Shown here in pieces: positions 17,315-60,082 of a stretch of DNA of 64,000 nt (the stretch's first letter is position 1; the number at the start of each line of letters is the position of its first letter). A model generated the notes under the pieces. That model saw only the letters and a list, made by a program, of their open reading frames with translations, was not told the DNA's origin and did not search any database. The DNA comes from Cyanidioschyzon merolae (lineage: Eukaryota). The position numbers and the translations under genes are program-made. The DNA lies in the NCBI GenBank assembly GCA_000091205.1, contig AP006502.2; one strand, written 5' to 3'.

Positions 17315-19129
17315 ATGGATAGCGTACCTCCAGTCGCGTCGGAGCTGTTCATTAGGAGTCGCGAGTCCGCTCAAATAGTGCGGTTGCGACGACTCGCGTC
17401 TATCGAGGAAGACGCAGCGCGGCTGCAGCTCAGCGCTGACGCGGGGCTCGACACGGCAACGAGCTTACCCGGTGTGCCACCTGGCCTGGCGTCGAGTACG
17501 GTAGCGCAGTTTTCACTACCTGACGGCAACTTGTTGCTCTGGGTCGACCCCGACACCCGAGCCTGTACCGTTTTTCGAGTTGGTGCCCCGGGCGAGCCGC
17601 TCGAGCCGGTGACCCGAGTCGGTGGCACTGCCCAGGACGAGTTTATACAGGATGCCGCCTTTTCCCCGTGCGGGGCCTTCTTGGTGACCTGGTCTCGGCC
17701 GCACGAACGTTTGGCAGACGGAAACTTACGGATCTGGCGGTGCGCAACTGGCGAAGCGGTGCGGGCGTTTCCGCATCGACACCACAGCGCTACTGCGTTT
17801 CCGTACGTCCAGTGGACAGCCGACGAACGGTATGCCTTGCACGCAGTCGCCAACGCACTTGACGTCTACGATGGCTCAAAGCTGGAGCAACCACCCTTGT
17901 TGCGCATCGCGATCCCTGGTCTTGTGCAGTTTGCCGTCGCGCCGGAGGCAGTTGCTGCTGCGGTCGGAGCGTTGGACCTAGCGTACGTCGCTACTTTTGT
18001 TCCCGAAAGTGCGAACGGGGCACCCGCTGTAATTCAGGTCTGGGCGATCGGGTCCAGCAGTGCCATTCGTTCTCGACATGGAGAAGTGGACGGCTTGCCG
18101 GCTAGCGGCAAAGAGGCGCGCTGCGCCGTTCCTGTTGCGAGTCGGCGAGTATACCGAGCACAACATGTAGAATTCTACTGGTCACCGAAAGTTTACGGTT
18201 CTGGTAGCAGCCCGTCACTGGTGATACGCACTAGTCACGATTACGATGTACATGGTCGCTCGTACTACGGCGAATCGAGCGCCCACTTCCTGTACCTGGG
18301 GAATAAATCGGAACAGAGCAGGGAGCCTGCCAGAGATCCGGCATCGATGCCGGAGGGACCCATCCACGACATCGGTTGGTCACCGACTGGACGCGAGTTT
18401 GTGATCGTCCATGGGACAACGCCGGCGCGGGCGACCCTCTTTCACGGGACAGGCACGGCAACCTTTGATTTTGGAACCGGACCTCGGAACCGTGTCTCTT
18501 GGTCACCACACGGGCGCTTCTTAGCACTGGCCGGGTTTGGCAGCATGTCAGGGAACGTGCAGATATGGGATCGGAACAAGAAGAAACTGATCGGTCAGTT
18601 TCAGGCCGAATGCACCACGCACTGGCAGTGGTCTCCGTGTTCGCGCTTTTTCCTCGTGGGCGTTTGTTATCCGCGAATGAAGGTCGACAATGGATTTCGC
18701 ATTTTCAAGTATGATGGCACGCTCGTCTATGAGCGCAAAATGCCCACCACACAGCTCTATCAGGTCGAGTGGCGAGCACGAGTCCCGGAGCAGTTTCCGG
18801 ATCGGCCAGTGTCTCCGCAGGTATTAACGAGTATGCGCAAAATGGCAGAGCAGATGACTGCCAACACGGATGCTTCGCAAAAGGGAAATGGTTCCGTCGC
18901 CAGTGCAGTAGCGGGAAACCAGACGCGTCCGAGTGGCGCCTATATCCCACCGCATCTTCGACGGCAGGTTATTGAGAACGGTGTTTCGATGCCCCCGCTG
19001 AAACTCCACGAACACGAGGCACCTCAGAGTCTCGTGTCTGGGCCGTTCCTGACCAAATCACAACGCAAGAATCGGAAGAAGAAAGAACGGGAAGCTCGGC
19101 AACAGCAGCAGGATATACCGTCGGTTTAG
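17315..19129 (+). CDS. EIF2A: Eukaryotic translation initiation factor 2A (eIF2A; WD-repeat/beta-propeller protein)
   Basis: 604-aa ORF. It contains the eIF2A signature block FDFGTGPRNRVSWSPHGRFLALAGFGSMSGNVQIWDRNKKKLIGQFQAECTTHWQWSPCSRFFLVGVCYPRMKVDNGFRIFKYDGTLVYER, near-identical in pattern to human eIF2A (FDFGTGPRNAAYYSPHGHILVLAGFGNLRGQMEVWDV...APRLRVNNGYKIWHYTGS). It also has SYYGESSAHFLY, AYIPPHLRRQ and a Lys-rich C-terminal tail. Confidence 0.9.
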   Translation: MDSVPPVASELFIRSRESAQIVRLRRLASIEEDAARLQLSADAGLDTATSLPGVPPGLASSTVAQFSLPDGNLLLWVDPDTRACTVFRVGAPGEPLEPVTRVGGTAQDEFIQDAAFSPCGAFLVTWSRPHERLADGNLRIWRCATGEAVRAFPHRHHSATAFPYVQWTADERYALHAVANALDVYDGSKLEQPPLLRIAIPGLVQFAVAPEAVAAAVGALDLAYVATFVPESANGAPAVIQVWAIGSSSAIRSRHGEVDGLPASGKEARCAVPVASRRVYRAQHVEFYWSPKVYGSGSSPSLVIRTSHDYDVHGRSYYGESSAHFLYLGNKSEQSREPARDPASMPEGPIHDIGWSPTGREFVIVHGTTPARATLFHGTGTATFDFGTGPRNRVSWSPHGRFLALAGFGSMSGNVQIWDRNKKKLIGQFQAECTTHWQWSPCSRFFLVGVCYPRMKVDNGFRIFKYDGTLVYERKMPTTQLYQVEWRARVPEQFPDRPVSPQVLTSMRKMAEQMTANTDASQKGNGSVASAVAGNQTRPSGAYIPPHLRRQVIENGVSMPPLKLHEHEAPQSLVSGPFLTKSQRKNRKKKEREARQQQQDIPSV

Positions 19130-21255: not shown

Positions 21256-22554
21256 CTAGCCGGAACTCTGGGTGCCAACGACAGCCTCTGTATCCGTCGA
21301 CACTGGCACTCGCTGACGCCATGCATTGGCGCCTGCGATACCCAGCAACAGCACGAGTCCAGTAAGCGGCATACGACGAAAATGTCGCATACAATCCGCG
21401 GGATCATCGAGACGAACTCGCTGTATTTGATGGAAAAGCTGCGCACCTACCAACGTGACGCCCGCATAAAACGGCCACGGCTGTTCAGAAACTACCCCAA
21501 CGAGCGTCAAGCTTGCAACCATGCCAGCAGCAAAGCCCCGTAACCAGGTCTTGGCATGCACTTCGCCAAAACGCAGCGCAGTGGAGCCTACACCCAGCCG
21601 TCTATCCGTGTACTTGTCCTGGTGTGCGTAGATGGTATCGTAGACCAGGGTCCAGCACCAGCCGGCACCGTACAACGGGAGTACAACGCGCCACGCCATG
21701 GACCCGTCCGTAGCCGCAGACCAACCCAGCAACACACCCCAGTTGAAGGTGAGTCCAAGGACAGCCTGAGGCCACATGGTGACCCGCTTCGCCAGCGGAT
21801 ACAACGTCGCCGGCACCAACGCTGTGACACCCGTCAGAAACGTTGTCGAGTGGAGTAGGTCGCGGATCTGGTGCACCCCGAAGCGTTGAGCCCGCTGCTG
21901 AGCTGGCGTCGATATCCAGAGCAGGATCGGAAACCCCGCAAGCGTCTGTGCAGCCGCGAAACCGAGTCCCTGGCCTAGGTGAAGGCGTCCAGAAGCGAGC
22001 GGTCGTTGGCGAGTTCGGATAGTCTGCTTGTCGATGTCCCGGTCCCACAAGTCGTTTATGGTACAGCCGGCACCCCGTAGTAGGAATGCACCAGCCAAAA
22101 ACGCGCCTTGTAGACGGAGACTGCCCACAGGCGAAGTAGTCGGCTGTACTGGCGGCTCGGTGCCGTGGCCTGCGCTCGTTGTCGACTCGAGTCCAGCGGC
22201 CAGTGCGATGCTCCAGGCTCCTGGCAAGTAGAGCAGCCAGACACCAGTTGGTTTGTCCCAGCGGGCAAGCTGCGCGTAGGGCGCAACCCGTTGCACCAGT
22301 CTTGTCCAGAGTGACGGAGCAACCTGAACCATGACGCCAGCCGGACCGCGGCTACGCTCGTAGGGTAGACGACGAGTCGTCAGCAGAACGCCAGCGTCCG
22401 AGAGGTCGCGCACGTTTCCCCAAGGCTGACGACGTCCAACAACAACAACAACAACAACAAAAACAACAGCAGTGCCTATGGGTGTCGTTTCCCATGGTCT
22501 CGTGTGGAAGCACAGACGATGTTGCCGGAACCTGGCTGACTTCCAGTGAGGCAC
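21256..22554 (-). CDS. COQ2: 4-hydroxybenzoate polyprenyltransferase, mitochondrial (ubiquinone biosynthesis; UbiA superfamily)
   Basis: 432-aa ORF. UbiA motifs NDLWDRDIDKQTIRTRQRPLASGRL and WLLYLPGAWSIALAA are present, with multiple predicted TM helices. The N-terminal roughly 75 aa are Arg-rich and include a poly-Val run encoded by (GTT)n, consistent with a presequence. An internal Met (MVQVAPS...) is an alternative start. Confidence 0.85.
   Translation of the reverse strand: MPHWKSARFRQHRLCFHTRPWETTPIGTAVVFVVVVVVVGRRQPWGNVRDLSDAGVLLTTRRLPYERSRGPAGVMVQVAPSLWTRLVQRVAPYAQLARWDKPTGVWLLYLPGAWSIALAAGLESTTSAGHGTEPPVQPTTSPVGSLRLQGAFLAGAFLLRGAGCTINDLWDRDIDKQTIRTRQRPLASGRLHLGQGLGFAAAQTLAGFPILLWISTPAQQRAQRFGVHQIRDLLHSTTFLTGVTALVPATLYPLAKRVTMWPQAVLGLTFNWGVLLGWSAATDGSMAWRVVLPLYGAGWCWTLVYDTIYAHQDKYTDRRLGVGSTALRFGEVHAKTWLRGFAAGMVASLTLVGVVSEQPWPFYAGVTLVGAQLFHQIQRVRLDDPADCMRHFRRMPLTGLVLLLGIAGANAWRQRVPVSTDTEAVVGTQSSG
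22438..22469. repeat. (CAA)8 / (GTT)8 microsatellite inside the COQ2 N-terminal region
   Basis: The run caacaacaacaacaacaacaacaaaaacaacag is visible. On the minus strand it encodes VVFVVVVVVVV. Confidence 0.9.
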
Positions 22555-22693: not shown

Positions 22694-25093
22694 CTACGGG
22701 TCATCACACGAGAGACTAGCGTGCTCCACGAGCCAGGTTTCGCAAGCGAGGGCAACCTCTGCTGCAGTTGGTCGCTCCTGTACACTCGGCTGCACACAGC
22801 GCCGTATCCAGTCGATAAGAAACGACAGCACCAGGTTCGCATCGGTCGAGGTCTCCCCAGGCGCTGCAGTGAGTGCGTCCAGGCGGTCAAGTCTGCCTGC
22901 ACGCAGTGCCTGCCACTCGTCTCCCTTTGTTGGTAACGGCTGCTCGGTAAGCAGCTCGTATATTGAGATGCCAAGTGCAAAGACGTCGACGGGGACGAGC
23001 GAGCCTAGCGGCGCCTCGCTCAGAACACTTTGACAGAGATAGCGTGAATCGCCTTCGCTACCGGTAAAGTCCGCGCCATCTAGACGACATGCAAGCCCAA
23101 AGTCCGCGAGCTTGAATACTTCCTGTTTCGTGGGCTGCTTCCGGAGCTGGAGTTGCTGATGCGGCTTCCGTACGCTGCCGATGAGCATGTTCTCTGGCTT
23201 GACGTCCATATGGGCAATGCCGTGCGCATGGCAGTGTGCCAGCGCAGCGGCTACATGCCCCAGCAGACGGACGAGTCGCAAATAATGCGGTAGCTTGGAT
23301 GCTGTGGTGAGACGCGTTCTGCCGGACAGCTGCATGCTGCCACCAGCACAGTACTCGAGCTGCAAGTAGAGACGCGTATCGTGCTCCTCGAACCAGGCCG
23401 TGTGATAGCGAACGATATTCTCATGGGCACCAACGGCAGCCAAGGCGTGTACTTCGCGCAACGCGTCGAGGCGATCGGTGCGACTCAACAGCGGTCTGGT
23501 GGTGCGTTTCACGGCGTACAGGCATCCGTCTGTACGATGGCGTGCCAACAGTACCTGGCCTTTGACACCGGACCCGAGGATCTGTACTTCCTCGAACTGT
23601 TGAAGGAAACGCGAAGGCGAAGAGGCTACCTCTGGGAGAAGCTGATTCGGGCGCAGCTGCGCGGACGACATCTCCGCTTTCGATGGCGTCTCGGGTTCAT
23701 CCGTACAAACCAGAAACGGATTGATAATGGGCGCACTCGTTGGCTGTGCTTCGCGATGACGCCCATTTTCTGTGCACTGGATCACATCACCCATGGCAAG
23801 AAAGGAATCCCTGAGCTCAGCAGCAGTAGCAGTAGCAGGTGCACGCCTTGATCCCCACAGGCTGCGGTGGATGCGCTCCGCCGCTAGTCCGTTTCCTGGA
23901 CCTGCTTCCGTCTGCGACTGGGTGCGCGCATCCGTATTCGCCCAGAGCGGGTTCTCAGTCGGACGTCGGGCTGATCGCGCCGGCACCTGGGATGTAATCA
24001 TCATCGCGTGATCGCGAACAAGTGTTGGGATTCCTGCTGTCACGGGACGTAGCTCGCTGAGCGACCCACCTGGTGCGCTATTGCCGTTCGCTACGGCCTC
24101 ATCGTCGCCAGCCTGGCTAAAGGTAATTCTTCCGACCACATCGGTCGATGTTCGTGCTGCCTGAACTGCCCTGCGACGTGCCAGTAGCATCCCGAGTGTA
24201 TCCTGAGACAAGACGGACGTCTGTGTATGCATCTGGGATGAGAAGGTGCTGCTCTCGGGAGCGTCCATATCAGCGGTGGCTACGGCTTGCGTTTGGTACT
24301 CGTGTCGCTGACTCTGTAGAGGCGGTCTTGGTGCAGAGAAATTGCTCTCTCGAGCTGGACACCAACGGCCGTTTGCACTGCCGTTTAATAGGTGCAGCCG
24401 TTTGAGCGCAGGCGATGGCGATGGTGGAGGTTGGCTCGCGCCCGCGCCCTGCTCCGGCGCGAGTGTACTCGACGCGTTCGAGTCCTCGTCTGCTGCTGAC
24501 GCCGCCTGCGAGTTCATCCAATTCGCATTGACCGCTGTTGCAATCGTGAACGTTGGTGTGCGATATATTCCAGCATCTAGTCCCATGGCTGCGTCCCGGG
24601 AGGCGCCCTCGCCGAGGAATGGAGTCGCCACAAACTCGGCACTGTTGACCGGGGTTTCGATGTCGGCAGCCTCGGGCGTGAGTCGCCGTGCCCCATGCGG
24701 TGTCGTGCCCCAGCTTATCAAGTCCAATCGAGGGAGCTCAAGTTTCGGTGTACTGACCACGAGTCCGGCTTTACGCTCGAGAACTTCTGGAATCGTGCGC
24801 TGGCGGCTGGGTCCGGCGCTCTCGGTCGTCGACCCCAAGGCTCCGAGGCGTGGTCGCTCCTCAGTCCGAGACAAGCGTCGTTTGCGTCCAACAGACGCTT
24901 CCGCAATGCTGTCCGTGTCCAATTGTTGACCAGGCGCCGCACTGGAGGTCACCAGCGCTGCTGGAAGGCGGGGCGTACCCAACCGGGAGGCACGTCGCAT
25001 CTTGAGCACTGCCGTAGGCGGCGGGCCCTGCTGGGCCTGCGTCTTCGACCTCACACCGACTCTACCCATATGAAGTGCAGGCCTCACCGTCAA
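22694..25093 (-). CDS. WEE1: Wee1-like protein kinase (Wee1/Myt1 family)
   Basis: 799-aa ORF. The C-terminal kinase domain is collinear with Wee1: FEEVQILGSGVKGQVLLARHRTDGCLYAVKRT (Wee1: FxExxxIGxGxFGxVFKxxxRxDGCxYAIKRS). The ATP-lysine comes before the glycine loop, which is Wee1-specific. It also has LREVHALAAVGAHENIVRY, HMDVKPENMLI, LADFG, and EGDSRYLCQSVLSE (Wee1: EGDSRFLANEVLQE). The N-terminal roughly 450 aa are a low-complexity regulatory region. Confidence 0.85.
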   Translation of the reverse strand: MTVRPALHMGRVGVRSKTQAQQGPPPTAVLKMRRASRLGTPRLPAALVTSSAAPGQQLDTDSIAEASVGRKRRLSRTEERPRLGALGSTTESAGPSRQRTIPEVLERKAGLVVSTPKLELPRLDLISWGTTPHGARRLTPEAADIETPVNSAEFVATPFLGEGASRDAAMGLDAGIYRTPTFTIATAVNANWMNSQAASAADEDSNASSTLAPEQGAGASQPPPSPSPALKRLHLLNGSANGRWCPARESNFSAPRPPLQSQRHEYQTQAVATADMDAPESSTFSSQMHTQTSVLSQDTLGMLLARRRAVQAARTSTDVVGRITFSQAGDDEAVANGNSAPGGSLSELRPVTAGIPTLVRDHAMMITSQVPARSARRPTENPLWANTDARTQSQTEAGPGNGLAAERIHRSLWGSRRAPATATAAELRDSFLAMGDVIQCTENGRHREAQPTSAPIINPFLVCTDEPETPSKAEMSSAQLRPNQLLPEVASSPSRFLQQFEEVQILGSGVKGQVLLARHRTDGCLYAVKRTTRPLLSRTDRLDALREVHALAAVGAHENIVRYHTAWFEEHDTRLYLQLEYCAGGSMQLSGRTRLTTASKLPHYLRLVRLLGHVAAALAHCHAHGIAHMDVKPENMLIGSVRKPHQQLQLRKQPTKQEVFKLADFGLACRLDGADFTGSEGDSRYLCQSVLSEAPLGSLVPVDVFALGISIYELLTEQPLPTKGDEWQALRAGRLDRLDALTAAPGETSTDANLVLSFLIDWIRRCVQPSVQERPTAAEVALACETWLVEHASLSCDDP

Positions 25094-26887: not shown

Positions 26888-27508
26888 ATGGCTTGTTCGG
26901 CCTATACCCGCGCTTTAACCTATGTTGCTGGTGCCGCTGCTCAGCGTCCCTGGCGGGCTGCGCGCACGCACCGCGGCTCGTGGCGAACGCGTCGACAGCC
27001 GCGAGCGCACCCTCGTACATCGACCTGCTTCGCACAGCGAACTCGGTACAGGAGCGTTCGTCTGCAGGCCCCGTCTCCCGAAAATAACAAGAGCAACCGC
27101 GCGAACTCGCGACCTTCGACGAACCAAAAAGCGTCGTTGACGCCCAGCTTCCTGAGAGACGTCACTGATAGCAGCTTCTTCGCGGATGTGCCGTACCGGG
27201 AGTTCCAACAGATAGGACGGCTCTACCGCACGGTGGACGAATTTCTTGGCCGAAAGGAGAATCTCTTATTCTGGGGCTCGTGTGCGCTGCTGTTCGGAGC
27301 GTTTTCGGCTACGTCGATCTCAACGATCGTCGGTGCACTCGCCGAATGGGATCCCATAGCTGGCGCCGTCATCGTCTTTATCATGGAATGGATTGCTACA
27401 CAGTACTATCGCCGTCCTCGACCAAGCAATATCATTCGAATTTTGAATGCATACCAGGTCGGTCTGACTTTTGGGTTTATATTAGATGCGCTCAAGCTCG
27501 CTGGCTAG
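26888..27508 (+). CDS. Ycf20/DUF565-like small membrane protein with an N-terminal transit-peptide-like extension (plastid-type protein family)
   Basis: 206-aa ORF. The C-terminal roughly 90 aa are LLFWGSCALLFGAFSATSISTIVGALAEWDPIAGAVIVFIMEWIATQYYRRPRPSNIIRILNAYQVGLTFGFILDALKLAG. This fits the Ycf20 pattern as I recall it: two TM helices, a conserved WD, then a C-terminal ...LN.FK.GL..G.FIDAFKLGS. The N-terminal roughly 100 aa are rich in R/S/T/A and lack acidic residues, as in a plastid transit peptide. The family assignment is from memory, not from a search. Confidence 0.6.
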   Translation: MACSAYTRALTYVAGAAAQRPWRAARTHRGSWRTRRQPRAHPRTSTCFAQRTRYRSVRLQAPSPENNKSNRANSRPSTNQKASLTPSFLRDVTDSSFFADVPYREFQQIGRLYRTVDEFLGRKENLLFWGSCALLFGAFSATSISTIVGALAEWDPIAGAVIVFIMEWIATQYYRRPRPSNIIRILNAYQVGLTFGFILDALKLAG

Positions 27509-28100: not shown

Positions 28101-31100
28101 TCAGCGAGAGTCGAAAGCACCTTGCGCGGCCGCTGTGGGCTTCAACCCTGACGCCGGTGCATAGACGCTGTCAAGCATCTGCGACAGCGGCTTGCGAAGC
28201 ATCTCGTATGCATAGAACGATACGGCCACGGTAGGCCATGCTTTGAGAATATTCGGAACGAGGCCGCGATAGAGGCCACGAATACCCTCCTCCTTGAGCA
28301 CGGTTCGAAACACCTGCCGAAAGCGTCCGCCGCTGCCCTCATCTACCTGCATGCGAACACGGCACGTATCGAACGGGTAGGCAGCCATCTGGCCCAGCGT
28401 CGAGGCGATGAATCCCGACAGAATCAGGCCGCCAGCAGTCGGACGCCCGCTGCCGTCGTTGCGGCGGGGCATAATCGGACGCAGCGTCTCATAAACTGCA
28501 AAGTTAATTCCCACGTAGGGAAAGACACCAAGGGTGCTTGACAGGAGACCTCGGTACAGGCCAGGCACGCCTTGTTGCTTGCGCACTTCTCGCAGGCATT
28601 GCAGTACGCCATGGTAGCGCTCGGCAATGCCCCGATGCTGAACGGTTAAACGAGCTCGCGCCGTGTCCAGTGGATACGTTATCGTTGCTGCAACGATACC
28701 ACCGAGGCCAGCAATCACGACCGTGTCCCAGGCGGCAAAGCCAAGGGATCGTCGTGCATTCTCCGGGCGGTGTGCTTCGATATACTCCTTCGCTAGGGCA
28801 ATCGTTGCACTCTGGATGATCGTCGCCGGGAGAATTCGGAGAGCATTGGCCCCGTTGCCTCGATACATGCCCAGGATACCGTCTTGAGCAATCATGTTTC
28901 GAAATCCTCGCCATACGCTTGAATAAATGCGTTTCGATCGCGGATTCGGAGCTATGCGCTCATCCTTCAACAGCTCCGGCCGTACCTTGACCACGATACT
29001 TTCGGTTTGCATGAGCACTTTCAGACGATCGAGTGGTGCAACCAGGGTTCTCGCCAGTACACCAGCAACGGCAACACCGGCCACATGACCAATCAGGACG
29101 CCGCGGTGTGTGGGCGCTATTCCAGAAAACTGTGGCGTTCCGGCGAGCAGCGAGCTCGTCGAAAGCAGGATCTCGTCGTCGAGGGCGTTCGACGACGGCG
29201 CACGCGCAGCCTGCTGTTGCATATGTGCTTTCAGGCGATGAATATCGGCTAGGAACTTTGCTGGAAGCTTTCCCTCGCTTGCTGCGGTAAAGTCCCGAAA
29301 GTTCAGCTTTCGATCACCGCGCTTTCCAAAGAGTTGACGCAGCAGCGGTGATCCATCCTCAACCATGGCTTCAATCTCGCGATCGCCATTGGCGTACTCC
29401 AGGAACATCTCCTGGAACTCTTGCATGCCGACTTGTCCGGTGTTATCGCGATCGCATAACCGGAATATGAGCTGGCTTTCGGCATCTGGCTGATTCAGTA
29501 GTAGATCGAATCGGACGAATTCCCAAAAGTCGATCAGCGGTGCGCTTTGTTGCGAGGTCTTCCGCTGTGGCGCCGTCAGTGAGCCGCTGTTGTTGTTGCT
29601 CACCAGACGCAGCAGCAGATTGGATAGCCGACGGTAGTCCTCTGGTGATTCCTTAAAGGCATCCGCTCGCGCGAATCGCAGAAAGTCTTCGGGGGTCATA
29701 AAGTACTCATAGGGGTCGCCATCATCCGTACGCTGTGATTTTTCGCGCTTCACAGACGCGTATTCTTTGAAGATGCGCTCTAGATAGCAGGCTCCGCCTC
29801 CTAAATGAAGTCGATGGAAGGATTCGGCGCTGATGGCCCAGAGCTCTACGTCAGTGCGTGCGCGTACGGTCGCTCCACGTGGTGCATTGTACATGAGCGA
29901 GAGTTCACCGAAACTGTCGCCAGGTTGGAGCGTACCAGCAAGTTTCGGCTGGTGTCCTGGTTTGGAGATCCAACGTTCCAGCACGCCGCTTTTCACGATA
30001 TAGAAGTTATCACCCTTTTCTCCTTGTTCGAAGACGGTCTCACCGGGTCTGAAATTCACCGTGAAGAAACTCTCGAGTTCCTTCGGGCCAATACGATCGA
30101 GTCGCGAGAAGAGGAAATGCTTCTTCAATAGGGCGCGGAGCTGGCGACTCTCCGCGGCATTCTCGATGACGGATGTTTCGCCAAAGTCCAAGGCGAAACG
30201 TTCGAACGTGGCGCGATCGAGTCTCCAGAGCAAGGAGCGCTCGCGGGCTCGGATTGTGCTCGAACGCCCGGCTGCGTTGAAGAAAAGCGCAGTAAGGCCA
30301 AACGAGTTGCGCGGACCCAGTGTAGATACTTGAATGGGCTCCTGGCCGTCCTTGGCGATATAGCGATCAAGTGATCCGCTTTCGACCACGTAGAAGGCAT
30401 CGCCATAGTCTCCCTGGTGGAAGACGTAGTCTCCGGCTTCGACGATGACTGGCCGGAAGCTCTTCACGAGGTGATTGCGCGTGTACTCATCAGGCAAGGC
30501 AGCGAATATCGGGGTCCTTTTGAGGGCGTCACGGATCAGTTCACGCGATTCTCCTCGGGGATATGCGGGTTGACCGCTTGCATCCGACACGGGGCTTGCT
30601 CCTGCGGCATTCGCGTCGGTTCCGGGTACAGCCTCGTCTGCGGGATTGGTGCCAGTGGCCTCGGTTGTAGTCCTGTCTTGATTGGAGTCGGAGCCCAGCA
30701 AGCTGGCAAACCACCCTTGTTTCTGTGTTGGCAGTCGCCGAATGAATTCCTCATTCCCGAGACGAGCATTTTTCAAAAGGTGTACTCCCGGTGGGTTCGC
30801 CTGCTCTGTACTGAAATCTTTTGGTACGTAGCTATCCGCCGGCGGAAAGGAGCTCAACAGTCCTAGCCGCTGATACGCCGCCGCCACCAGTTCCGAGCAA
30901 AATACACGACTGAGATCGTTCGAGCCTTCGAAGAAGCCGCCTTTCGTAGCGGCAAGCTCGCGACGGAGAACCTCTTCAATCTTCTCCTCCGATTGCAGGA
31001 GAATGCGACGTTGCTCGAGAAGCGAGTTGCGCTGGAATGCAGTGAGTGCAGCTTCGCGCAGCTCGCGCTCTACTTCCATGCGCTGCGCACGACGACTCAC

Positions 31101-31802
31101 GAGCAAGGCATGAAGTCGCTCGCGTTCCTGCATATCGGCGGGGTGGATCACGCTTACCAGCATAGCGCCAAGATCATTCTTGTATGGCGTCTCGAGTACC
31201 TGTTCCGCAAAGTGCAGCAGCTCGGTGCGAAAGCGCTCCGTGCGAATAATAGAGAGTCTTCGGAACGCGATCTCGTTCGAGCGCGAGCGCCGTATTCTCT
31301 CGTCAAGCGGTCGCAATGTTACGCCAGAAAGGTTCGCCTCGAGAAGGTGCAACGAGCCGTCCTCTTTGCGAACAACGATGCCGACGTGGTCCCACCGAGA
31401 ATTGGACATGGCTTTCGCCACCGCACAGATTAGCGCTCCGAGCGGCGCCATGGCCAGGCAGCGCCGGTTAAAAAGCACAATGTCTCCGGCATCCAACCCT
31501 GGTGGCAGCGTCACTCGACGTTCACGTTTCAATTCCGTTCCACCAGTGGAAGAGCGCACCTGGGACTGCACCGTTTCTCCCTGGTGCTTCCGGTCCGGTG
31601 GGGCCGGCGGCACCGGCCGCTGGGGTTGCTGCTGCTGTAGCGCCGCCTCCCCTGAGACCCGTTTTTCCGACAGCGCAGCTTCCGGCTTTTCTATTGCCCT
31701 GCCATTCTCTTTCACTGTGGAAGAGTCCGTAGAAACCTTCCGAGTCTCGGCTGACTGCCCGTTACCCATAGAGTCCGCGAAAGACGGTCGCTTGCGGAAC
31801 AA
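28101..31802 (-). CDS. Large multi-domain protein: permuted-papain (YiiX/C92, NlpC-P60 superfamily) domain, two cyclic-nucleotide-binding domains, EF-hand region, and a mitochondrial carrier (SLC25) domain
   Basis: Uninterrupted 1233-aa ORF. Domains from the N-terminus: (1) GDIVLFNRRCLAM...RWDHVGIVVRKEDGSLHLLEANLSGVTL ... FCSELVAAAYQRLG, i.e. His-then-Cys permuted papain fold; (2) CNB domain 1, FHQGDYGDAFYVVESG...FGLTALF...RSSTIRA (degenerate, no Glu); (3) CNB domain 2, FEQGEKGDNFYIVKSG...FGELSLMYNAPRGATVRA (canonical FGELAL...RxATVxA); (4) EF-hand loops DRDNTGQVGMQEF and KRGDRKLNFRDF; (5) three mitochondrial-carrier repeats (LVAPLDRLKVLMQ, YPLDTARARLTV, YPFDTCRVRMQV), ending ...GAFDSR. An N-terminal MGNGQS, if it is the true start, fits an N-myristoylation consensus. 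Confidence 0.85.
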   Translation of the reverse strand: MFRKRPSFADSMGNGQSAETRKVSTDSSTVKENGRAIEKPEAALSEKRVSGEAALQQQQPQRPVPPAPPDRKHQGETVQSQVRSSTGGTELKRERRVTLPPGLDAGDIVLFNRRCLAMAPLGALICAVAKAMSNSRWDHVGIVVRKEDGSLHLLEANLSGVTLRPLDERIRRSRSNEIAFRRLSIIRTERFRTELLHFAEQVLETPYKNDLGAMLVSVIHPADMQERERLHALLVSRRAQRMEVERELREAALTAFQRNSLLEQRRILLQSEEKIEEVLRRELAATKGGFFEGSNDLSRVFCSELVAAAYQRLGLLSSFPPADSYVPKDFSTEQANPPGVHLLKNARLGNEEFIRRLPTQKQGWFASLLGSDSNQDRTTTEATGTNPADEAVPGTDANAAGASPVSDASGQPAYPRGESRELIRDALKRTPIFAALPDEYTRNHLVKSFRPVIVEAGDYVFHQGDYGDAFYVVESGSLDRYIAKDGQEPIQVSTLGPRNSFGLTALFFNAAGRSSTIRARERSLLWRLDRATFERFALDFGETSVIENAAESRQLRALLKKHFLFSRLDRIGPKELESFFTVNFRPGETVFEQGEKGDNFYIVKSGVLERWISKPGHQPKLAGTLQPGDSFGELSLMYNAPRGATVRARTDVELWAISAESFHRLHLGGGACYLERIFKEYASVKREKSQRTDDGDPYEYFMTPEDFLRFARADAFKESPEDYRRLSNLLLRLVSNNNSGSLTAPQRKTSQQSAPLIDFWEFVRFDLLLNQPDAESQLIFRLCDRDNTGQVGMQEFQEMFLEYANGDREIEAMVEDGSPLLRQLFGKRGDRKLNFRDFTAASEGKLPAKFLADIHRLKAHMQQQAARAPSSNALDDEILLSTSSLLAGTPQFSGIAPTHRGVLIGHVAGVAVAGVLARTLVAPLDRLKVLMQTESIVVKVRPELLKDERIAPNPRSKRIYSSVWRGFRNMIAQDGILGMYRGNGANALRILPATIIQSATIALAKEYIEAHRPENARRSLGFAAWDTVVIAGLGGIVAATITYPLDTARARLTVQHRGIAERYHGVLQCLREVRKQQGVPGLYRGLLSSTLGVFPYVGINFAVYETLRPIMPRRNDGSGRPTAGGLILSGFIASTLGQMAAYPFDTCRVRMQVDEGSGGRFRQVFRTVLKEEGIRGLYRGLVPNILKAWPTVAVSFYAYEMLRKPLSQMLDSVYAPASGLKPTAAAQGAFDSR

Positions 31803-32543
31803 TACCGAGTACGAGACGTCCGGTGCGAACGCTGTAGCGCTTCGCTTGTTCTCGGCTGCGGAATGCCGCGGCGGCGGTGAGCCAGTGTCCGCGGACGCTA
31901 CGCTTGGTTGTAGCTGGGAGGCGGCCTACGTACCGTTCAGGAGGACAGTCCTGGAGTTGGATTCTCGTTCAGGACAGAGGACGTCGGGGCGAAGTGTTTG
32001 CAAGCTGTCGTCCGAGGCTCAGAGCGCTGCCGTCGAGGTTGTGCAGGAGCGTGCACCCGTTGGCTTGCGCGGCCTAGACAGTCCTCGTCTCGGAGCTAGT
32101 GGAGCGCTTCCTCAGCTGCGGCCGCGTGCGGTACGGTATCCGCAGCGCTTGCTCACAAGCGTCTTACACCGGTGCAGCGGATCCGGGAACTGAAGTTCAA
32201 CCAAAACACTCTCTGATAAACTGCTGGGAAGCGTGTTGGACGGATAGAGGGCTGCGGTGAGCTCGAGCTCTATCGACGTGTTTGTGCGAACGCTTTGCGA
32301 CGTTCGCGCACGTCCACGAGACTCTCTGCTGCAGCCGGGTACCTGTGTCTTTGAGCGTGTGTCGAAAAGAAGACCAGTTCGACAGGGCCTGGTTTGTGTG
32401 TGTGCGTGCTTTTAGAGCACTTGTCGACTCGTGACAGTGTGGTGCCTCGTACTGGCGGCTCGCTCGCTTACATTCTGTTCTCGGTAACGGGAGCGCGTTG
32501 TTTTCTACCGCCGTGCCTGGAACTCGTCAACTTTTAATTTCAT

Positions 32544-33281
32544 TTGTTTCCCGCTAAGACTGCAGACACCTGGACGTCTCTTGCTTCGGTTTCCAACATG
32601 GATGGCCCTGCACCCTCTGCAGGGGCGGAGCCTATGTTCCGCCTACCTCAACCACCTCCTCACTTGCAACGATTTTTTGATCCATCGTTCTACACACGGA
32701 CTTTCTTCTGTATAGGCCCAGTGTGTCTCTGCTCTGGAGCTGGGCTTGGTCTGGGCGTCGGCTGTGGTGCCGGTATCGGTAAGGGATGGATGCCCATCAC
32801 AGCTTCCACATCGGCAGCGGGCGGCGGCCTGGGTGGCTCCGGCGCGTTTGCGTCCCTGCCGCTGGGCTCGATGTTAGGCGGCATTCCCGGAGGCTACTTT
32901 GTCCTTGACCTGTTACGCAATGTATTGCGAAAATTCCCCGGTGCACAACCGGGCGTTGGATGCGGTGTTGGTTTCGGATACGGGATCGGTATTGGGCTGC
33001 ATTACGGGAGAGCGGGCGCAGCGACGTTTCGGCGGACTTCCTACTCGGTGCCTAGCTCGGGTGCGTACAGGGCAGGCGGCGAGTACGTTGCACCGCCGCA
33101 GCCAGCAGCACCCGCACCCGCTCCAAGTCCTGATGTTCTGCGTCGCGTGAACGAACTGGAAAAACGGTTACAAAATCTAGAGGAGCGGCTCAATACCCAG
33201 ATTCGGCTATTTGAGCTCGAGCAGCGACTGAATCGTCTCGAACGAGACACAGGCGCGACCGGAAAGAAAAAGGGCCACTGA
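32544..33281 (+). CDS. Hypothetical glycine-zipper protein with a C-terminal coiled coil
   Basis: 245-aa ORF. It has repeated small-xxx-small glycine-zipper tracts (GAGLGLGVGCGAGIGKG; GVGCGVGFGYGIGIGL) typical of membrane-embedded glycine zippers, a Pro/Ala-rich linker, and a heptad-repeat tail LRRVNELEKRLQNLEERLNTQIRLFELEQRLNRLERD. No homolog is recognised, so coding status is uncertain. Confidence 0.4.
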   Translation: MFPAKTADTWTSLASVSNMDGPAPSAGAEPMFRLPQPPPHLQRFFDPSFYTRTFFCIGPVCLCSGAGLGLGVGCGAGIGKGWMPITASTSAAGGGLGGSGAFASLPLGSMLGGIPGGYFVLDLLRNVLRKFPGAQPGVGCGVGFGYGIGIGLHYGRAGAATFRRTSYSVPSSGAYRAGGEYVAPPQPAAPAPAPSPDVLRRVNELEKRLQNLEERLNTQIRLFELEQRLNRLERDTGATGKKKGH

Positions 33282-39243: not shown

Positions 39244-40596
39244 ATGGACTTATTGGCAAAAGCGGCGGAAACGAGCACTGCTGGAGAAGACTCGGAGAGC
39301 TCCCCGAGAAAGTCGACTGGTGACCGTCCAAAACGCTCGGAGCCAACGCCGTTTATCCTGAAGCTGTACGAGCTGGTCTCGGACCCGAGCACAGACGACC
39401 TCTGCACCTGGACGGAAAACGGTGACTCGTTTGTTGTCTTGGAACCGGGTCGGTTTACGAGTGAGATTCTCCCACGTTATTTCAAACATCACAACTTTTC
39501 GAGCTTCGTTAGACAGTTGAATCAGTACGCGTTCAACAAGTGCTCGTGCGTTCGCCTCGAGTACCGGAATCCGAACTTTCTTCGCGGTCGCTTTGACCTT
39601 TTGGCTCAAATAGAACGCAGGCCGAATAGAAAGCCGACACCTCCGAGCCTCCCTACTGTGAGCCCTGACACTGGTCCACCGACAACGGCTGGGTCCGGTG
39701 CCATCAAGGCCCAGCTACCGTCACCGTCTGCGGCACCGTCGAACCAGGAGGCCGCGTCGTCGTGGCCAGGACCGGGGTTTGCAGCGTGGCGACCACCGCA
39801 GGCGAACTGGCAACCCAGCCAGGGCAAGTCTCCGGATATTTTCAACCCGCAAGCAGGTGCTTGCTGGCCCGCGGCTGTGTACGGCCCAGGTGGGTATGTC
39901 GGCTCATCGCTCGGACCCGTGCCTGCGCGGCCGGACGTGTTTCCAGGGCGTGACTCAAACTATGAGGCCTTCCGCCTGCGACGTCATTTCTCACCGGAGC
40001 TCGCCTCGCGAATCTCTCAGTGGTCGCGTTCCGAGGATGCCCCAGCGAGCGGCCGAATGGAATCCCATCGTGAGACCGCGGAAAGCCCCGCCTGGGGAGC
40101 GTGCGGAGCTCGCGATACACGACAAGCAGAGCAGGCCACAGCATCCACTGCCTCACAGTCGACGCAGAGCCTGCGCGTGGCGAGGTATCCGGCGAGCACG
40201 CTGGTCAGTGTCCTACGCGAACGACTGCTGGCCGTGGGATCCGAGTACGTACACGTGGACACCGCTCTGAACCTGGTCGCGGAGCTTGAAGCGCAACAGG
40301 AACGCGAACTTTTGTCGATATGTACAGAAACCATCCATGCTGTCGACAGGTTTCGCAGCTGCCTCTGGACGCTGTGTGCGCGTCGCGCCAGCAGAGCGTA
40401 CGAAAGTGCGGTCGGCGAGCCATTCACGTTCGCCGGTCGCTCGACATCGACCAGCAACCCGACATCCGGACAGACGGACTCGCCTATGGAGCAAGCGCAG
40501 AGCTCGGCGACAACGGATGCCCCAGCAGGGTCCTCAAGTGTGCTCGGATCGATGGACATGGGACCGCAGCCTGATGTACCGCTACCAGGCAAGTGA
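39244..40596 (+). CDS. Heat shock factor-type transcription factor (HSF DNA-binding domain)
   Basis: 450-aa ORF. N-terminal winged-helix HSF DBD PFILKLYELVSDPSTDDLCTWTENGDSFVVLEPGRFTSEILPRYFKHHNFSSFVRQLNQYAFNK (consensus FLxKLxxLVxDPxTDxxIxWSxxGxSFVVxDxxxFxxxLLPxYFKHxNFxSFVRQLNxYGFxKV). The C-terminal half is low-complexity (S/P/A/Q-rich). Confidence 0.85.
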   Translation: MDLLAKAAETSTAGEDSESSPRKSTGDRPKRSEPTPFILKLYELVSDPSTDDLCTWTENGDSFVVLEPGRFTSEILPRYFKHHNFSSFVRQLNQYAFNKCSCVRLEYRNPNFLRGRFDLLAQIERRPNRKPTPPSLPTVSPDTGPPTTAGSGAIKAQLPSPSAAPSNQEAASSWPGPGFAAWRPPQANWQPSQGKSPDIFNPQAGACWPAAVYGPGGYVGSSLGPVPARPDVFPGRDSNYEAFRLRRHFSPELASRISQWSRSEDAPASGRMESHRETAESPAWGACGARDTRQAEQATASTASQSTQSLRVARYPASTLVSVLRERLLAVGSEYVHVDTALNLVAELEAQQERELLSICTETIHAVDRFRSCLWTLCARRASRAYESAVGEPFTFAGRSTSTSNPTSGQTDSPMEQAQSSATTDAPAGSSSVLGSMDMGPQPDVPLPGK

Positions 40597-59214: not shown

Positions 59215-60082
59215 GAGAACCCGCTGGAGTCCTTCGGGAGCACAGGTTGCAGCTCTCTGTCCACGTCAAGCTTCTCAGCAAAGCCTTCTTCAGAACAGTC
59301 GCTGATCGACTGATGCTTCTAATGGCTGCTATATTGCGCGTTCCACAAGGCCAGCCGCCGGGAGAAGCAATCCTAAAAGTGCTGCGTTCGCGCTCTGAGC
59401 TCTAAAATATCTGTTAGAGAGTTCGGTGGCTCGGCTCTTACCCAGAAGTAACCACGGCTCCACAGCTACGCAGCTCCAGTCCAGCGCTAGATGTTTCCTC
59501 ACTCAAAAAATACCTAATCAGGATCCGCTTTGCTCAATTCGTCGGCCACGCGGAGCGTGTGAGCCTCGACGTCGACGCTTGCGCACGTCGCGAAGGTTTG
59601 AGGTGTGGACTCCCGCTGTTTTCGGTGCAGCGACGCAGCCTGTTCCGCAGCAACAGTATACAAGTCGCTACACGGGAAAGCGTCCTTCACAAACGCCACA
59701 CTTGTTTACCAACGCTCCCGCCGACGATAGCAAGATACACGGAAGGGTGTACAACTTCCAGTTGATCGCTGTTGCACCAAAGCCGCGAATCGCCATCATT
59801 CGCGTGGCCAGGACGATATTAGTCATTGTGTATGATCTCCTCTAGATATGAAACATATATGTAATTATACGTTCATATCTCCATAAATATGAATCATTCA
59901 GACTCGCCGCATGCTGGGACGGCAGCGACGCTGCCAGCGCCACCGGTACTTCTTGCCGTGGGCGCGTTTCCCCAGCCAGTGCTCGTAACTACGGTTGGTT
60001 CCAGTGTCAACAACAAGTGGCTGGCACTTGCGTGACGGCGAGAGAACTACTATCGCTGCTCTTCCGTTTGGAGGTAGCACCA

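What the first reader, a model, noticed from the sequence alone, without database searches (positions are those of the whole stretch)
28101..31802. Unusual 1233-aa fusion: permuted-papain domain, two cNMP-binding domains, EF hands and a mitochondrial SLC25 carrier in one ORF
Ca2+-regulated mitochondrial carriers (Aralar/citrin, SCaMC/APC) are known to pair N-terminal EF hands with an SLC25 domain. This ORF additionally places two cyclic-nucleotide-binding domains and a YiiX/C92-type permuted papain-fold domain upstream of the EF hands, in one continuous reading frame. CNB domain 2 is canonical (FGELSL...RGATVRA); CNB domain 1 lacks the conserved Glu and may not bind nucleotide. I do not recognise this architecture from any characterised protein. 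A carrier gated jointly by cAMP/cGMP and Ca2+ would link second-messenger signalling directly to mitochondrial (or plastid-envelope) solute transport. The C92-like domain (His in WDHVGIVV, Cys in FCSELV) could be an amidase/acyltransferase or a lipid-binding module. An in-frame MGNGQS near the N-terminus fits an N-myristoylation consensus, which would imply membrane tethering of the regulatory half.
Basis: partly seen in the sequence, partly recalled or inferred. Interest (0 to 1): 0.8.

Follow-up and report, generated by a model that had tools for sequence, protein, structure and literature searches.

The report
Multi-sensor mitochondrial carrier of red algae
This is a real single gene of the red alga Cyanidioschyzon merolae that joins a lipid-amidase-like enzyme domain, two cyclic-nucleotide sensors and a calcium sensor to a nucleotide-type mitochondrial carrier; the same fusion occurs in other algae and in oomycetes, and I found no study of it.

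Summary
ORF 28101..31802 (-) exists. The database protein starts at the ATG at 31769 (MGNGQS, 1222 aa) and is 100% identical to C. merolae 10D BAM83499.1/XP_005539535.1, "similar to mitochondrial calcium-dependent solute carrier".

All five modules are confirmed, in the stated order:
- Two PKA-R-like cNMP-binding domains. The second site is canonical; the first lacks the Glu but keeps the Arg.
- An Aralar/MICU-type EF-hand module with a single canonical Ca2+ loop.
- A three-repeat SLC25 carrier, closest to ADNT1, SLC25A16 and ATP-Mg/Pi carriers.

It is not a read-through artefact. The same architecture occurs in about 50 proteins from red algae, Chlorokybus, Mesostigma and oomycetes, including complete ORFs from transcriptome assemblies. 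Shorter variants exist, and the C92-carrier pairing persists in all of them.

The MGNGQS myristoylation motif occurs only in Cyanidioschyzon and Cyanidiococcus.

Full-text searches found no paper on this architecture.

Best reading: an adenine-nucleotide-type carrier gated by Ca2+ and cNMP through an N-terminal region facing the intermembrane space, with a lipid-directed enzyme domain attached. The anatomy is shown; the mechanism is inferred. I classify it as a new variant of a known kind.

The parts
28101..31769 (-). Complete coding sequence: ATG at 31769 to stop at 28101-28103, 1222 aa, no intron. The mechanical ORF extends 11 codons further upstream, to a TTG at 31802.
   Evidence: 100% identical to BAM83499.1 / XP_005539535.1 of C. 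merolae 10D.
31515..31769 (-). Variable N-terminal region, aa 1-85. It begins MGNGQS (31752-31769), which fits an N-myristoylation consensus.
   Evidence: Mean pairwise identity 0.14, with no invariant column. MGN.QS is present only in the three Cyanidioschyzon/Cyanidiococcus sequences.
31155..31514 (-). C92/YiiX permuted papain domain, N-terminal half (aa 86-205). It carries the GD motif (G95, D96), His128, Glu144 and Tyr196.
30930..31154 (-). Helical hairpin of about 75 aa (aa 206-280), inserted between the catalytic Tyr and the catalytic Cys of the C92 domain.
   Evidence: Two long helices, at model residues 130-159 and 164-195, with pLDDT 91-98. Bacterial 3KW0 and 2IF6 lack the hairpin: only 158 and 142 residues align. 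Stand-alone eukaryotic relatives have it.
30735..30929 (-). C92 domain, C-terminal half (aa 281-345), with the catalytic Cys291 in VFCSELVAAAYQ.
   Evidence: C291 is invariant in 49 sequences. Mean pairwise identity 0.65.
30150..30524 (-). Cyclic-nucleotide-binding domain 1 (aa 416-540). Its phosphate-binding cassette is SFGLTALFFNAAGRSSTIRA: the Glu is replaced and the Arg is kept.
   Evidence: Pfam cNMP_binding. PDB hits to PKG and PKA-R tandem domains at E 1e-35. No family member has a Glu at this position; the Lagenidium sequence has Asp (FGD) instead. The Arg is kept in all 49.
29760..30149 (-). Cyclic-nucleotide-binding domain 2 (aa 541-670). Its phosphate-binding cassette, SFGELSLMYNAPRGATVRA, is canonical.
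   Evidence: Best Pfam stretch. FGE...R..T is present in all 49 sequences. Mean pairwise identity 0.67, equal to the C92 N-terminal half and the highest of any segment.
29190..29759 (-). Aralar/MICU-type EF-hand module (aa 671-860). It has one canonical Ca2+ loop, DRDNTGQVGMQE (29418-29453), and a non-canonical partner, FGKRGDRKLNFRDF. A conserved amphipathic helix, LPAKFLADIHRLKAHM (within 29202-29267), follows.
   Evidence: phmmer: MICU3 2.5e-06, a Dictyostelium MICU 1.4e-05, Aralar1 2.8e-05, citrin 4.8e-05. Model pLDDT 83. Top Foldseek hits are 4P5X and 4P5W.
28185..29084 (-). SLC25 carrier domain (aa 896-1195). Three repeats carry PLDRLK, PLDTAR and PFDTCR. The contact-point residues are R978, G1081-V1082 and K1176. 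A family-specific loop, LRPIMPRRNDGSGRPT, lies between H4 and H5.
   Evidence: Pfam Mito_carr, three stretches, E 1.1e-62. Yeast AAC2, E 2e-30. Closest named stand-alone relatives are ADNT1, SLC25A16 and SCaMC at 32-37% identity.

Best explanation
**What it is.** An intronless nuclear gene of Cyanidioschyzon merolae. It encodes one polypeptide in which a carrier of the adenine-nucleotide/CoA clade of SLC25 sits behind a regulatory region of about 890 residues.

**Topology (inferred).** SLC25 topology puts both termini on the intermembrane-space side of the inner membrane. The whole N-terminal region would therefore face the intermembrane space and see cytosolic Ca2+ and cNMP levels.

**Proposed mechanism, by analogy with ATP-Mg/Pi and aspartate/glutamate carriers.**
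- Ca2+ binds the single canonical EF loop of the Aralar/MICU-type module.
- cAMP or cGMP binds the canonical second CNB site, and possibly the Glu-less first site.
- Binding changes how the regulatory region and the conserved amphipathic helix after the EF module dock on the cytoplasmic face of the carrier.
- This opens or blocks exchange of an adenine-nucleotide-like substrate.

**The C92 domain.** It keeps a complete Cys-His-Glu-Tyr active site and is as conserved as CNB2, more than any other part of the protein. It most likely acts as a thiol hydrolase or acyltransferase on an acyl-amide or acyl-lipid at the membrane surface. It is the partner that stays with the carrier in the reduced variants.

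**Status of each step.**
- Shown: gene integrity, domain identities, conserved functional residues, phylogenetic spread.
- Inferred: location, substrate, ligand binding, gating logic, enzyme activity.
For: **Gene and domains**
- ORF and 100% database match.
- Five domains found by Pfam.

**C92 domain**
- H128, E144, Y196 and C291 correspond to His49, Glu64, Tyr127 and Cys154 of BcPPNE. All four are invariant in 49 homologues.
- The closest non-carrier relatives carry PH, C2 or PX lipid-binding domains.

**CNB domains**
- The pair resembles PKA-R and PKG tandems, E about 1e-35.
- The second site is canonical in all 49 sequences.

**EF module**
- Matches MICU and Aralar by sequence and by fold.
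- The canonical loop is conserved.
- The helix that follows is modelled with pLDDT 94-96.

**Carrier**
- Three PX[DE]XX[KR] motifs are present. Contact-point residues R / G-V / K are invariant or nearly so.
- Nearest named relatives are ADNT1, SLC25A16 and SCaMC.

**Family and precedent**
- The full architecture recurs in red algae, Chlorokybus, Mesostigma and oomycetes, including complete ORFs from transcriptome assemblies.
- The variants C92-CNB-carrier and C92-carrier also exist.
- The APC mechanism with an amphipathic helix is described in PMC12410006.
Against: - No experiment on any member was found.
- Localisation is untested. Some SLC25 members sit in plastid, peroxisomal or other membranes.
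- An 890-residue folded extension is about three times longer than that of Aralar, and it would have to cross the outer membrane.
- I could not check whether C. merolae makes cAMP or cGMP.
- The cytoplasmic salt-bridge motif [FY][DE]XX[KR] is lost on H2 in this family. Transport kinetics may therefore be unusual, or the carrier may be partly degenerate.
- The EF loop of C. merolae itself has Thr at position 5 and falls below the Pfam cut-off.
- No full-length model was made, so no contact between domains has been shown.
Confidence: 0.55

Rival explanations
1. Enzyme-centred reading. The protein is mainly a second-messenger-regulated lipid amidase or acyltransferase. The carrier domain serves chiefly to anchor and target it to the inner membrane, and little or no transport remains.
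For: - The C92 core is more conserved than the carrier: 0.65-0.67 against 0.52 mean pairwise identity.
- C92 is the module that always accompanies the carrier, including in direct C92-carrier fusions.
- Stand-alone C92+hairpin proteins often begin with a basic, moderately hydrophobic segment that looks like a membrane anchor.
- The H2 cytoplasmic network motif is lost.
Against: - All three PX[DE]XX[KR] motifs are conserved across the family, as are the Gln residues that follow two of them and the substrate contact residues R978, G1081 and K1176.
- A mere anchor would not need these.
Confidence: 0.2
2. The CNB domains do not sense cAMP or cGMP. They bind another small ligand, or they serve only as a structural or dimerisation scaffold. 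The protein would then be a Ca2+-regulated carrier with extra, non-signalling domains.
For: - CNB1 lacks the ribose-contacting Glu in every family member.
- CNB folds in the CRP/FNR superfamily bind varied ligands (my own knowledge).
- I found no evidence for cyclases or cNMP signalling in C. merolae in the searchable literature.
Against: - CNB2 keeps the full FGE...R[AGS]AT cassette in all 49 sequences, and is as conserved as the C92 N-terminal half, more than any other segment.
- Its closest solved relatives are true cNMP sensors, PKG and PKA-R.
Confidence: 0.2
3. Artefact. Two or more neighbouring genes are read through as one ORF because of an assembly or sequencing error.
For: None found, beyond the unusual length and domain combination.
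Against: - The same order of domains occurs in about 50 independent sequences from several eukaryotic lineages.
- These include complete ORFs from transcriptome assemblies (P0012, P0041, P0249) and several independent C. merolae-like assemblies with identical 1222-aa products.
- The linkers are short, and the frame is open throughout.
Confidence: 0.02

Closest known systems
Mitochondrial ATP-Mg/Pi carriers (APC / SCaMC; SLC25A23/24/25; yeast Sal1)
   Same: - An N-terminal Ca2+-sensing EF-hand region, then an amphipathic helix, then an adenine-nucleotide-type SLC25 domain.
- The carrier domains are 32-35% identical.
- K at contact point III and G-[VI] at contact point II.
- JGI assigns this protein the 'SLC25 member 23/24/25/41' label.
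   Different: - APC has four canonical calmodulin-like EF hands. Here the EF region matches Aralar and MICU and has one canonical loop.
- Contact point I is R here, as in ADNT1 and SLC25A16, against K in SCaMC.
- APC has no CNB or C92 domain.
Aspartate/glutamate carriers Aralar and citrin (SLC25A12/13), and MICU1-3
   Same: - The EF module shares the ...LI[SD]F.EF..F...L..PDA...AF...D...G.....E... and ...FG+.G.+.L...EF pattern with both.
- It gives them as its best sequence and fold hits.
- As in Aralar, most EF motifs are non-binding (my own knowledge of Thangaratnarajah et al. 2014).
   Different: - The canonical loop here aligns with MICU EF1 and with the non-binding third EF motif of Aralar, not with Aralar's Ca2+-binding EF2.
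- The carrier domain is not of the aspartate/glutamate type: no Aralar-type carrier appears among the best 120 hits.
- There is no conserved C-terminal helix: the tail has 0.16 identity.
ADNT1 (plant AMP/ADP/ATP carrier) and SLC25A16/42-type CoA carriers
   Same: - They are the closest named stand-alone carriers, with E about 1e-43 to 1e-42 and 35-37% identity.
- Motifs are shared: APLERLKILMQ, YPLD..R.RL.VQ and YP.D..RRRMQ.
- R at contact point I.
   Different: - They have no N-terminal regulatory region.
- They keep the YE..K cytoplasmic network motif on H2, which this family has lost.
YaeF/YiiX-like permuted NlpC/P60 enzymes (MEROPS C92; B. cereus BcPPNE 3KW0, E. coli YiiX 2IF6)
   Same: - The same GD motif and the same His, Glu, Tyr and Cys active-site residues.
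   Different: - A conserved helical hairpin of about 75 residues is inserted between the Tyr and the Cys.
- The domain is fused to signalling domains and a membrane transporter.
- Sequence identity is only 21-23%.
- The substrate is unknown in both.
Tandem CNB domains of PKA regulatory subunits and PKG
   Same: - Two consecutive CNB domains, with E about 1e-35 to PKG and PKA RI-alpha.
- The second cassette is canonical.
   Different: - There is no kinase, inhibitor sequence or dimerisation/docking domain. The output is a transporter and an enzyme domain.
- The first cassette has Leu, Met or Thr in place of Glu.

Membership tests
Mitochondrial carrier family (SLC25 / Pfam PF00153) | Three tandem repeats of about 100 residues | tested here: met
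   Pfam Mito_carr, three stretches, E 1.1e-62. Full-length alignment to yeast AAC2, E 2e-30.
Mitochondrial carrier family (SLC25 / Pfam PF00153) | PX[DE]XX[KR] matrix-gate motif on H1, H3 and H5 | tested here: met
   PLDRLK, PLDTAR and PFDTCR. The P and the basic residues are invariant or nearly so in the family.
Mitochondrial carrier family (SLC25 / Pfam PF00153) | [FY][DE]XX[KR] cytoplasmic-gate motif on H2, H4 and H6 | tested here: inconclusive
   Present on H4 (YETLR) and H6 (YEMLR). Lost on H2 (IALAK) here and in most family members.
Mitochondrial carrier family (SLC25 / Pfam PF00153) | Location in the mitochondrial inner membrane | not testable with these tools
   I found no localisation data.
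ATP-Mg/Pi carriers (APC/SCaMC) | N-terminal calmodulin-like domain with four Ca2+-binding EF hands | tested here: not met
   One canonical loop only. The best sequence and fold matches are MICU and Aralar/citrin; no APC/SCaMC regulatory-domain entry appears among the listed hits.
ATP-Mg/Pi carriers (APC/SCaMC) | Amphipathic helix between the regulatory and carrier domains | tested here: inconclusive
   A conserved amphipathic helix (aa 835-850; L835, P836 and F839 nearly invariant) is modelled with pLDDT 94-96. Its docking was not examined.
ATP-Mg/Pi carriers (APC/SCaMC) | Carrier domain orthologous to SLC25A23/24/25 | tested here: inconclusive
   SCaMC, ADNT1 and SLC25A16 score about equally, E 1e-41 to 1e-43. 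Contact point I is R rather than the K of SCaMC. No phylogeny was made.
Aspartate/glutamate carriers (Aralar/citrin) | Eight-EF-hand N-terminal domain, an aspartate/glutamate-type carrier and a C-terminal helix | tested here: not met
   Only the first roughly 150 residues of the Aralar N-domain align. The carrier is of the nucleotide type. The C-terminal tail is not conserved.
Cyclic-nucleotide-binding domain (PF00027) | Beta-barrel with the phosphate-binding cassette FGE[LI]AL...R[AST]A | tested here: met
   CNB2 is fully canonical in 49 of 49 sequences. CNB1 keeps FG and R..T..A but lacks the Glu.
Cyclic-nucleotide-binding domain (PF00027) | Binding of cAMP or cGMP | not testable with these tools
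   This needs a binding assay.
Peptidase C92 (YaeF/YiiX permuted NlpC/P60; PF05708) | Circularly permuted papain fold, with the His N-terminal to the Cys | tested here: met
   [not shown]
Peptidase C92 (YaeF/YiiX permuted NlpC/P60; PF05708) | Catalytic Cys, His, Glu and Tyr, plus the GD motif | tested here: met
   C291, H128, E144 and Y196 are invariant in 49 sequences. G95 and D96 are invariant wherever that region is present. The reference residues come from PMC3142127.
Peptidase C92 (YaeF/YiiX permuted NlpC/P60; PF05708) | Hydrolase or acyltransferase activity on a lipid-linked substrate | not testable with these tools
   This is only proposed even for the bacterial reference structures.

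The most novel reading that the evidence does not exclude
This family would be the first SLC25 carrier controlled directly by cyclic nucleotides. One polypeptide would combine cAMP/cGMP and Ca2+ signals at the outer face of the inner mitochondrial membrane to set adenine-nucleotide (or CoA-type) exchange. Its invariant C92 active site would process a lipid-amide or acyl-lipid at the same membrane surface; N-acyl amino acids are one speculative candidate. That would tie a lipid signal to carrier activity. The module would be old, because it is shared by red algae, early-branching streptophyte algae and stramenopiles.
Probability: 0.3. Interest if true: 0.85.

Novelty: new variant of a known kind. 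Interest (0 to 1): 0.62.

Why it matters
- **Regulation of carriers.** As far as I know, only two kinds of regulated mitochondrial carrier are recognised, ATP-Mg/Pi and aspartate/glutamate, and both sense Ca2+ alone. A conserved family that adds a canonical cNMP site and an intact enzyme domain would extend the known ways of controlling carriers. It would also provide a direct, kinase-independent route from cNMP signalling to mitochondrial metabolite exchange.
- **An experimental system.** C. merolae is genetically tractable, as I recall from the field rather than from a check here. It has almost no introns, and it carries one copy of this gene in the window examined. The protein could therefore be tagged, deleted and mutated domain by domain.
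- **The C92 family.** The persistent C92-carrier pairing gives a functional handle on the YiiX/C92 family, whose substrates are unknown.
- **Oomycete homologues.** Phytophthora species, which are plant pathogens, carry homologues. Among organisms outside these algal and oomycete lineages, the searches recovered only stand-alone carriers and unrelated CNB proteins, never this fusion.

Tried and rejected
**Read-through of two genes.** Rejected: the architecture is conserved in about 50 sequences, including transcript-derived complete ORFs.

**N-myristoylation as a family feature.** Rejected: 3 of 49 sequences have the motif.

**SCaMC-type EF domain.** Rejected in favour of the Aralar/MICU type.

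**phmmer of the C92 region against PDB sequences.** It found nothing at E up to 1. The relationship needed the Pfam profile and a structural comparison.

**The catalytic Tyr.**
- I first took Y299, which follows the Cys, as the catalytic Tyr, on the strength of a secondary citation.
- The primary paper gives Tyr127, upstream of Cys154.
- The equivalent residue here is Y196. Y299 is also invariant, but its role is unknown.

**Literature searches.** Searches for the accession numbers, for CNB plus mitochondrial carrier, and for cAMP or cyclases in Cyanidioschyzon gave nothing relevant.

**Analyses not done.**
- Foldseek against the AlphaFold database was unavailable.
- A full-length model was not made.
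- The carrier-only protein search did not return the protein's own family members. This is probably an effect of the word-index candidate cap, so that list was used only to name the nearest stand-alone carriers.

Full report
**1. The observation**

The window carries an uninterrupted ORF on the minus strand from 31802 (TTG) to the stop at 28101-28103, 1233 codons long. The first ATG is at 31769 and opens with MGNGQS.

From that ATG the product is 1222 aa. It is 100% identical to the deposited protein BAM83499.1 / XP_005539535.1 / UniProt M1VD17 of Cyanidioschyzon merolae 10D, named "similar to mitochondrial calcium-dependent solute carrier", on a contig of 1,621,617 bp.

The window is therefore nuclear DNA of this red alga. 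Its other long ORFs are ordinary eukaryotic genes. They include:
- the flavoprotein subunit of succinate dehydrogenase;
- eIF2A;
- a UbiA prenyltransferase;
- a protein kinase;
- HSF, Sir2 and DP;
- a LanC-like protein;
- a RING E3 ligase;
- Nop56/58.

All residue numbers below refer to the 1222-aa protein.

**2. Domains**

Pfam gives:
- Mito_carr, three stretches, E 1.1e-62.
- cNMP_binding, two stretches, E 4.6e-44.
- Peptidase_C92, E 3.3e-08, above its cut-off.
- EF-hand_1, 19.8 bits, below its cut-off of 25.4.

NCBIfam adds weak YebB/YiiX hits and CRP-like hits.

**3. The C92 domain**

*Fold.* phmmer of aa 81-400 against PDB sequences found nothing. An AlphaFold2 model built on 49 homologues reached pLDDT 82. 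Its best matches were:
- Foldseek E 1.6e-05 to 3KW0.

*Active site.* The primary paper on 3KW0 names Cys154, His49, Glu64 and Tyr127 as the catalytic residues. [quoted passage not shown] The equivalents here are C291, H128, E144 and Y196. All four are invariant in 49 family members, and the GD motif is invariant wherever that region is present.

*Hairpin.* Between Y196 and C291 lies a helical hairpin of about 75 residues, modelled with pLDDT 91-98. The bacterial structures lack it.

*Conservation.* The two halves of the C92 core show 0.65-0.67 mean pairwise identity, as high as CNB2 and higher than any other segment of the protein.

**4. The CNB pair**

Residues 400-690 match apicomplexan PKG and PKA RI-alpha tandem CNB domains at E about 1e-35.

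- CNB2 keeps FGE[LA]...R[GAS][AST]T in all 49 sequences.
- CNB1 reads FG[LMT..]T...R..T[IV]RA. The Glu that contacts the ribose 2'-OH is absent in every sequence; the Lagenidium sequence has Asp at that position. The phosphate-binding Arg is invariant.

From my own knowledge, Epac CNB domains also lack this Glu and still bind cAMP. CNB1 therefore cannot be written off on that ground. The residue after the Arg is Gly, Ala or Ser rather than the Thr typical of PKG. From my own knowledge, that leans towards cAMP but does not settle it.

**5. The EF-hand region**

*Sequence and fold matches.* Residues 655-900 hit the following:

| Target | E-value |
|---|---|
| MICU3 | 2.5e-06 |
| Dictyostelium MICU | 1.4e-05 |
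| Aralar1 | 2.8e-05 |
| citrin | 4.8e-05 |

A model with pLDDT 83 gives the Aralar/citrin N-terminal domains as its best Foldseek matches, at about 1e-06. MICU and generic four-EF-hand proteins follow.

*Which motif aligns with which.*
- LIDFWEFVRFDLLLNQPDAE corresponds to the helix that leaves Aralar EF2.
- The one canonical loop, D773-E784, corresponds to MICU EF1 and to Aralar EF3. It reads DRDNTGQVGMQE here and D.N.SGFIS..E in most homologues.
- FGKRGDRKLNFRDF corresponds to the non-canonical FG..G...L...EF motif found in both.

*The helix that follows.* A conserved amphipathic helix (aa 835-850) comes next and is modelled with high confidence.

The domain is therefore of the Aralar/MICU kind, not the calmodulin-like four-EF-hand domain of ATP-Mg/Pi carriers.

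**6. The carrier**

*Solved and named relatives.* Residues 880-1222 align over their whole length with yeast AAC2, E 2e-30. The nearest named stand-alone carriers are green-algal ADNT1, SLC25A16 and SCaMC/SLC25A25, at 32-37% identity and E 1e-41 to 1e-43.

*Conserved transport features.*
- All three PX[DE]XX[KR] motifs are present.
- The residues at the three substrate contact points are conserved across the family: R978, G1081-V1082 and K1176.
- G-[IVLM] at contact point II is the nucleotide signature. That rule is my own knowledge of Robinson and Kunji 2006; the general logic of contact points is in PMC12410006.

*Deviations.*
- The cytoplasmic network motif is kept on H4 and H6 but lost on H2.
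- A loop specific to this family, LRP.LPRRNDGSG.PT, joins H4 and H5 on the cytoplasmic side.

**7. One gene, and a family**

The full-length query found about 50 proteins with the same architecture at 38-80% identity. Named sources:
- Red algae: Cyanidiococcus, Galdieria partita, Porphyridium purpureum, Rhodosorus marinus, Gracilariopsis chorda.
- Streptophyte algae: Chlorokybus atmophyticus and Mesostigma viride.
- Oomycetes: Lagenidium, three Phytophthora species and Achlya.

Several are complete ORFs from transcriptome assemblies (P0012, P0041, P0249). In those species one mRNA therefore spans all the domains.

I then searched the C92+hairpin segment exhaustively against 1.84 billion representative proteins. 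It gave 925 hits at E up to 0.001, and 33 at E up to 1e-30. Scanning the best 150 with family-derived HMMs and with Pfam showed these variants:
- C92-CNB-EF-carrier.
- C92-CNB-carrier.
- C92-carrier directly, for example in Chrysoparadoxa australica.
- Stand-alone C92+hairpin proteins of about 260-300 aa.

Many of the stand-alone proteins start with a basic, moderately hydrophobic segment that looks like a mitochondrial membrane anchor (inference). More distant relatives lack the hairpin and carry PH, C2 or PX lipid-binding domains. The pairing that persists is C92 with the carrier. The sensor domains are added between the two.

**8. Myristoylation**

MGN.QS occurs only in C. merolae and the two Cyanidiococcus-like sequences. 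The N-terminal 85 residues are otherwise not conserved. The motif may be used in this lineage, but it is not part of the conserved design.

**9. How it most likely works**

*Established.* SLC25 carriers have both termini on the intermembrane-space side. The N-terminal domains of ATP-Mg/Pi and aspartate/glutamate carriers sit there and sense cytosolic Ca2+. In ATP-Mg/Pi carriers, an amphipathic helix binds the regulatory domain when Ca2+ is present, and binds and blocks the carrier when it is absent (PMC12410006).

*Inferred for this protein.*
- The N-terminal region of about 890 residues faces the intermembrane space.
- Ca2+ at the single EF loop and cNMP at CNB2 (perhaps also CNB1) change how that region and the helix at 835-850 dock on the cytoplasmic face of the carrier.
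- The conserved H4-H5 loop may take part in that docking.
- The result gates exchange of an adenine-nucleotide-like substrate.
- The C92 domain has an intact active site and lipid-associated relatives. It probably acts on an acyl-amide or acyl-lipid at the membrane surface.

None of this has been tested. I give it 0.55.

*Main rivals.*
- An enzyme-centred reading, in which the carrier is mostly an anchor (0.2).
- CNB domains that do not sense cNMP (0.2). I treat this as partly overlapping the other readings rather than as a fully separate outcome, which is why the figures sum to about 1.
- The read-through artefact is effectively excluded (0.02).

**10. Novelty**

The gene is deposited, and its domains are auto-annotated, so the sequence itself is not new.

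I found no paper that describes or discusses the architecture. A 2018 study of how ATP-Mg/Pi carriers evolved does not mention red algae, oomycetes or cyclic nucleotides. A 2025 review of SLC25 carriers contains no occurrence of "cyclic".

I class it as a new variant of a known kind: Ca2+-regulated mitochondrial carriers, here with added cNMP sensors and an enzyme domain. Interest is 0.62. The architecture is solid, conserved and surprising to a carrier specialist, and it can be tested in a tractable alga. Everything about its function is still inference.

Noticed in passing
window 31180..32193 (+), 30417..30866 (+), 30993..31433 (+), 28504..28914 (-): Several ORFs of 130-340 aa overlap the carrier gene, either antisense or in other frames. 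With about 57% G+C, such ORFs are expected by chance. None was examined further, and I treat them as spurious.
   Followed up: no
window 26888..27508 (+): The downstream neighbour encodes a 206-aa protein with a DUF565 domain (E 1.7e-12) behind an Arg-rich N-terminal extension. From memory, DUF565 is the Ycf20-like plastid family, so this may be a plastid-targeted protein.
   Followed up: partly
window 32544..33281 (+): The upstream neighbour is a 245-aa ORF with a Gly-rich central region (GLGLGVGCGAGIGKG...) and a C-terminal coiled-coil-like tail. It has no Pfam match.
   Followed up: partly
P0021 (Porphyridium purpureum, 1989 aa; not in the window): The Porphyridium homologue is deposited as 'Uracil catabolism protein 4'. 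It continues after the carrier into GTP cyclohydrolase II and DUF1688 domains. This looks like a gene model that merges two neighbouring genes, but a real further fusion was not excluded.
   Followed up: partly
P0209, P0218, P0222, P0227, P0276, P0286 (stand-alone C92+hairpin proteins; not in the window): These proteins of about 260-320 aa start with a basic segment followed by a moderately hydrophobic stretch, for example MSTRLQARFIFGTGLALSLGGCGYLLIRDQQKK. That resembles mitochondrial signal-anchor or bipartite targeting sequences. It suggests the C92+hairpin module works at a mitochondrial membrane even when it is not fused to a carrier.
   Followed up: partly
P0257, P0285, P0292, P0294, P0303, P0305, P0331, P0332 (not in the window): A second eukaryotic group of C92 proteins lacks the hairpin and combines the domain with PH, C2 or PX lipid-binding domains, and in one case with an F-box. 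I found no characterised member.
   Followed up: partly
window 6666..8741 (-), 17315..19129 (+), 21256..22554 (-), 22694..25093 (-), 39244..40596 (+), 43848..45203 (-), 53781..55277 (-), 56641..59214 (-), 60017..61630 (+): The rest of the window holds compact, apparently intronless nuclear genes. They include SDHA, eIF2A, a UbiA prenyltransferase, a protein kinase, HSF, Sir2, a LanC-like protein, a DUF2921-RING E3 ligase and Nop56/58. Nothing links them functionally to the carrier gene.
   Followed up: partly
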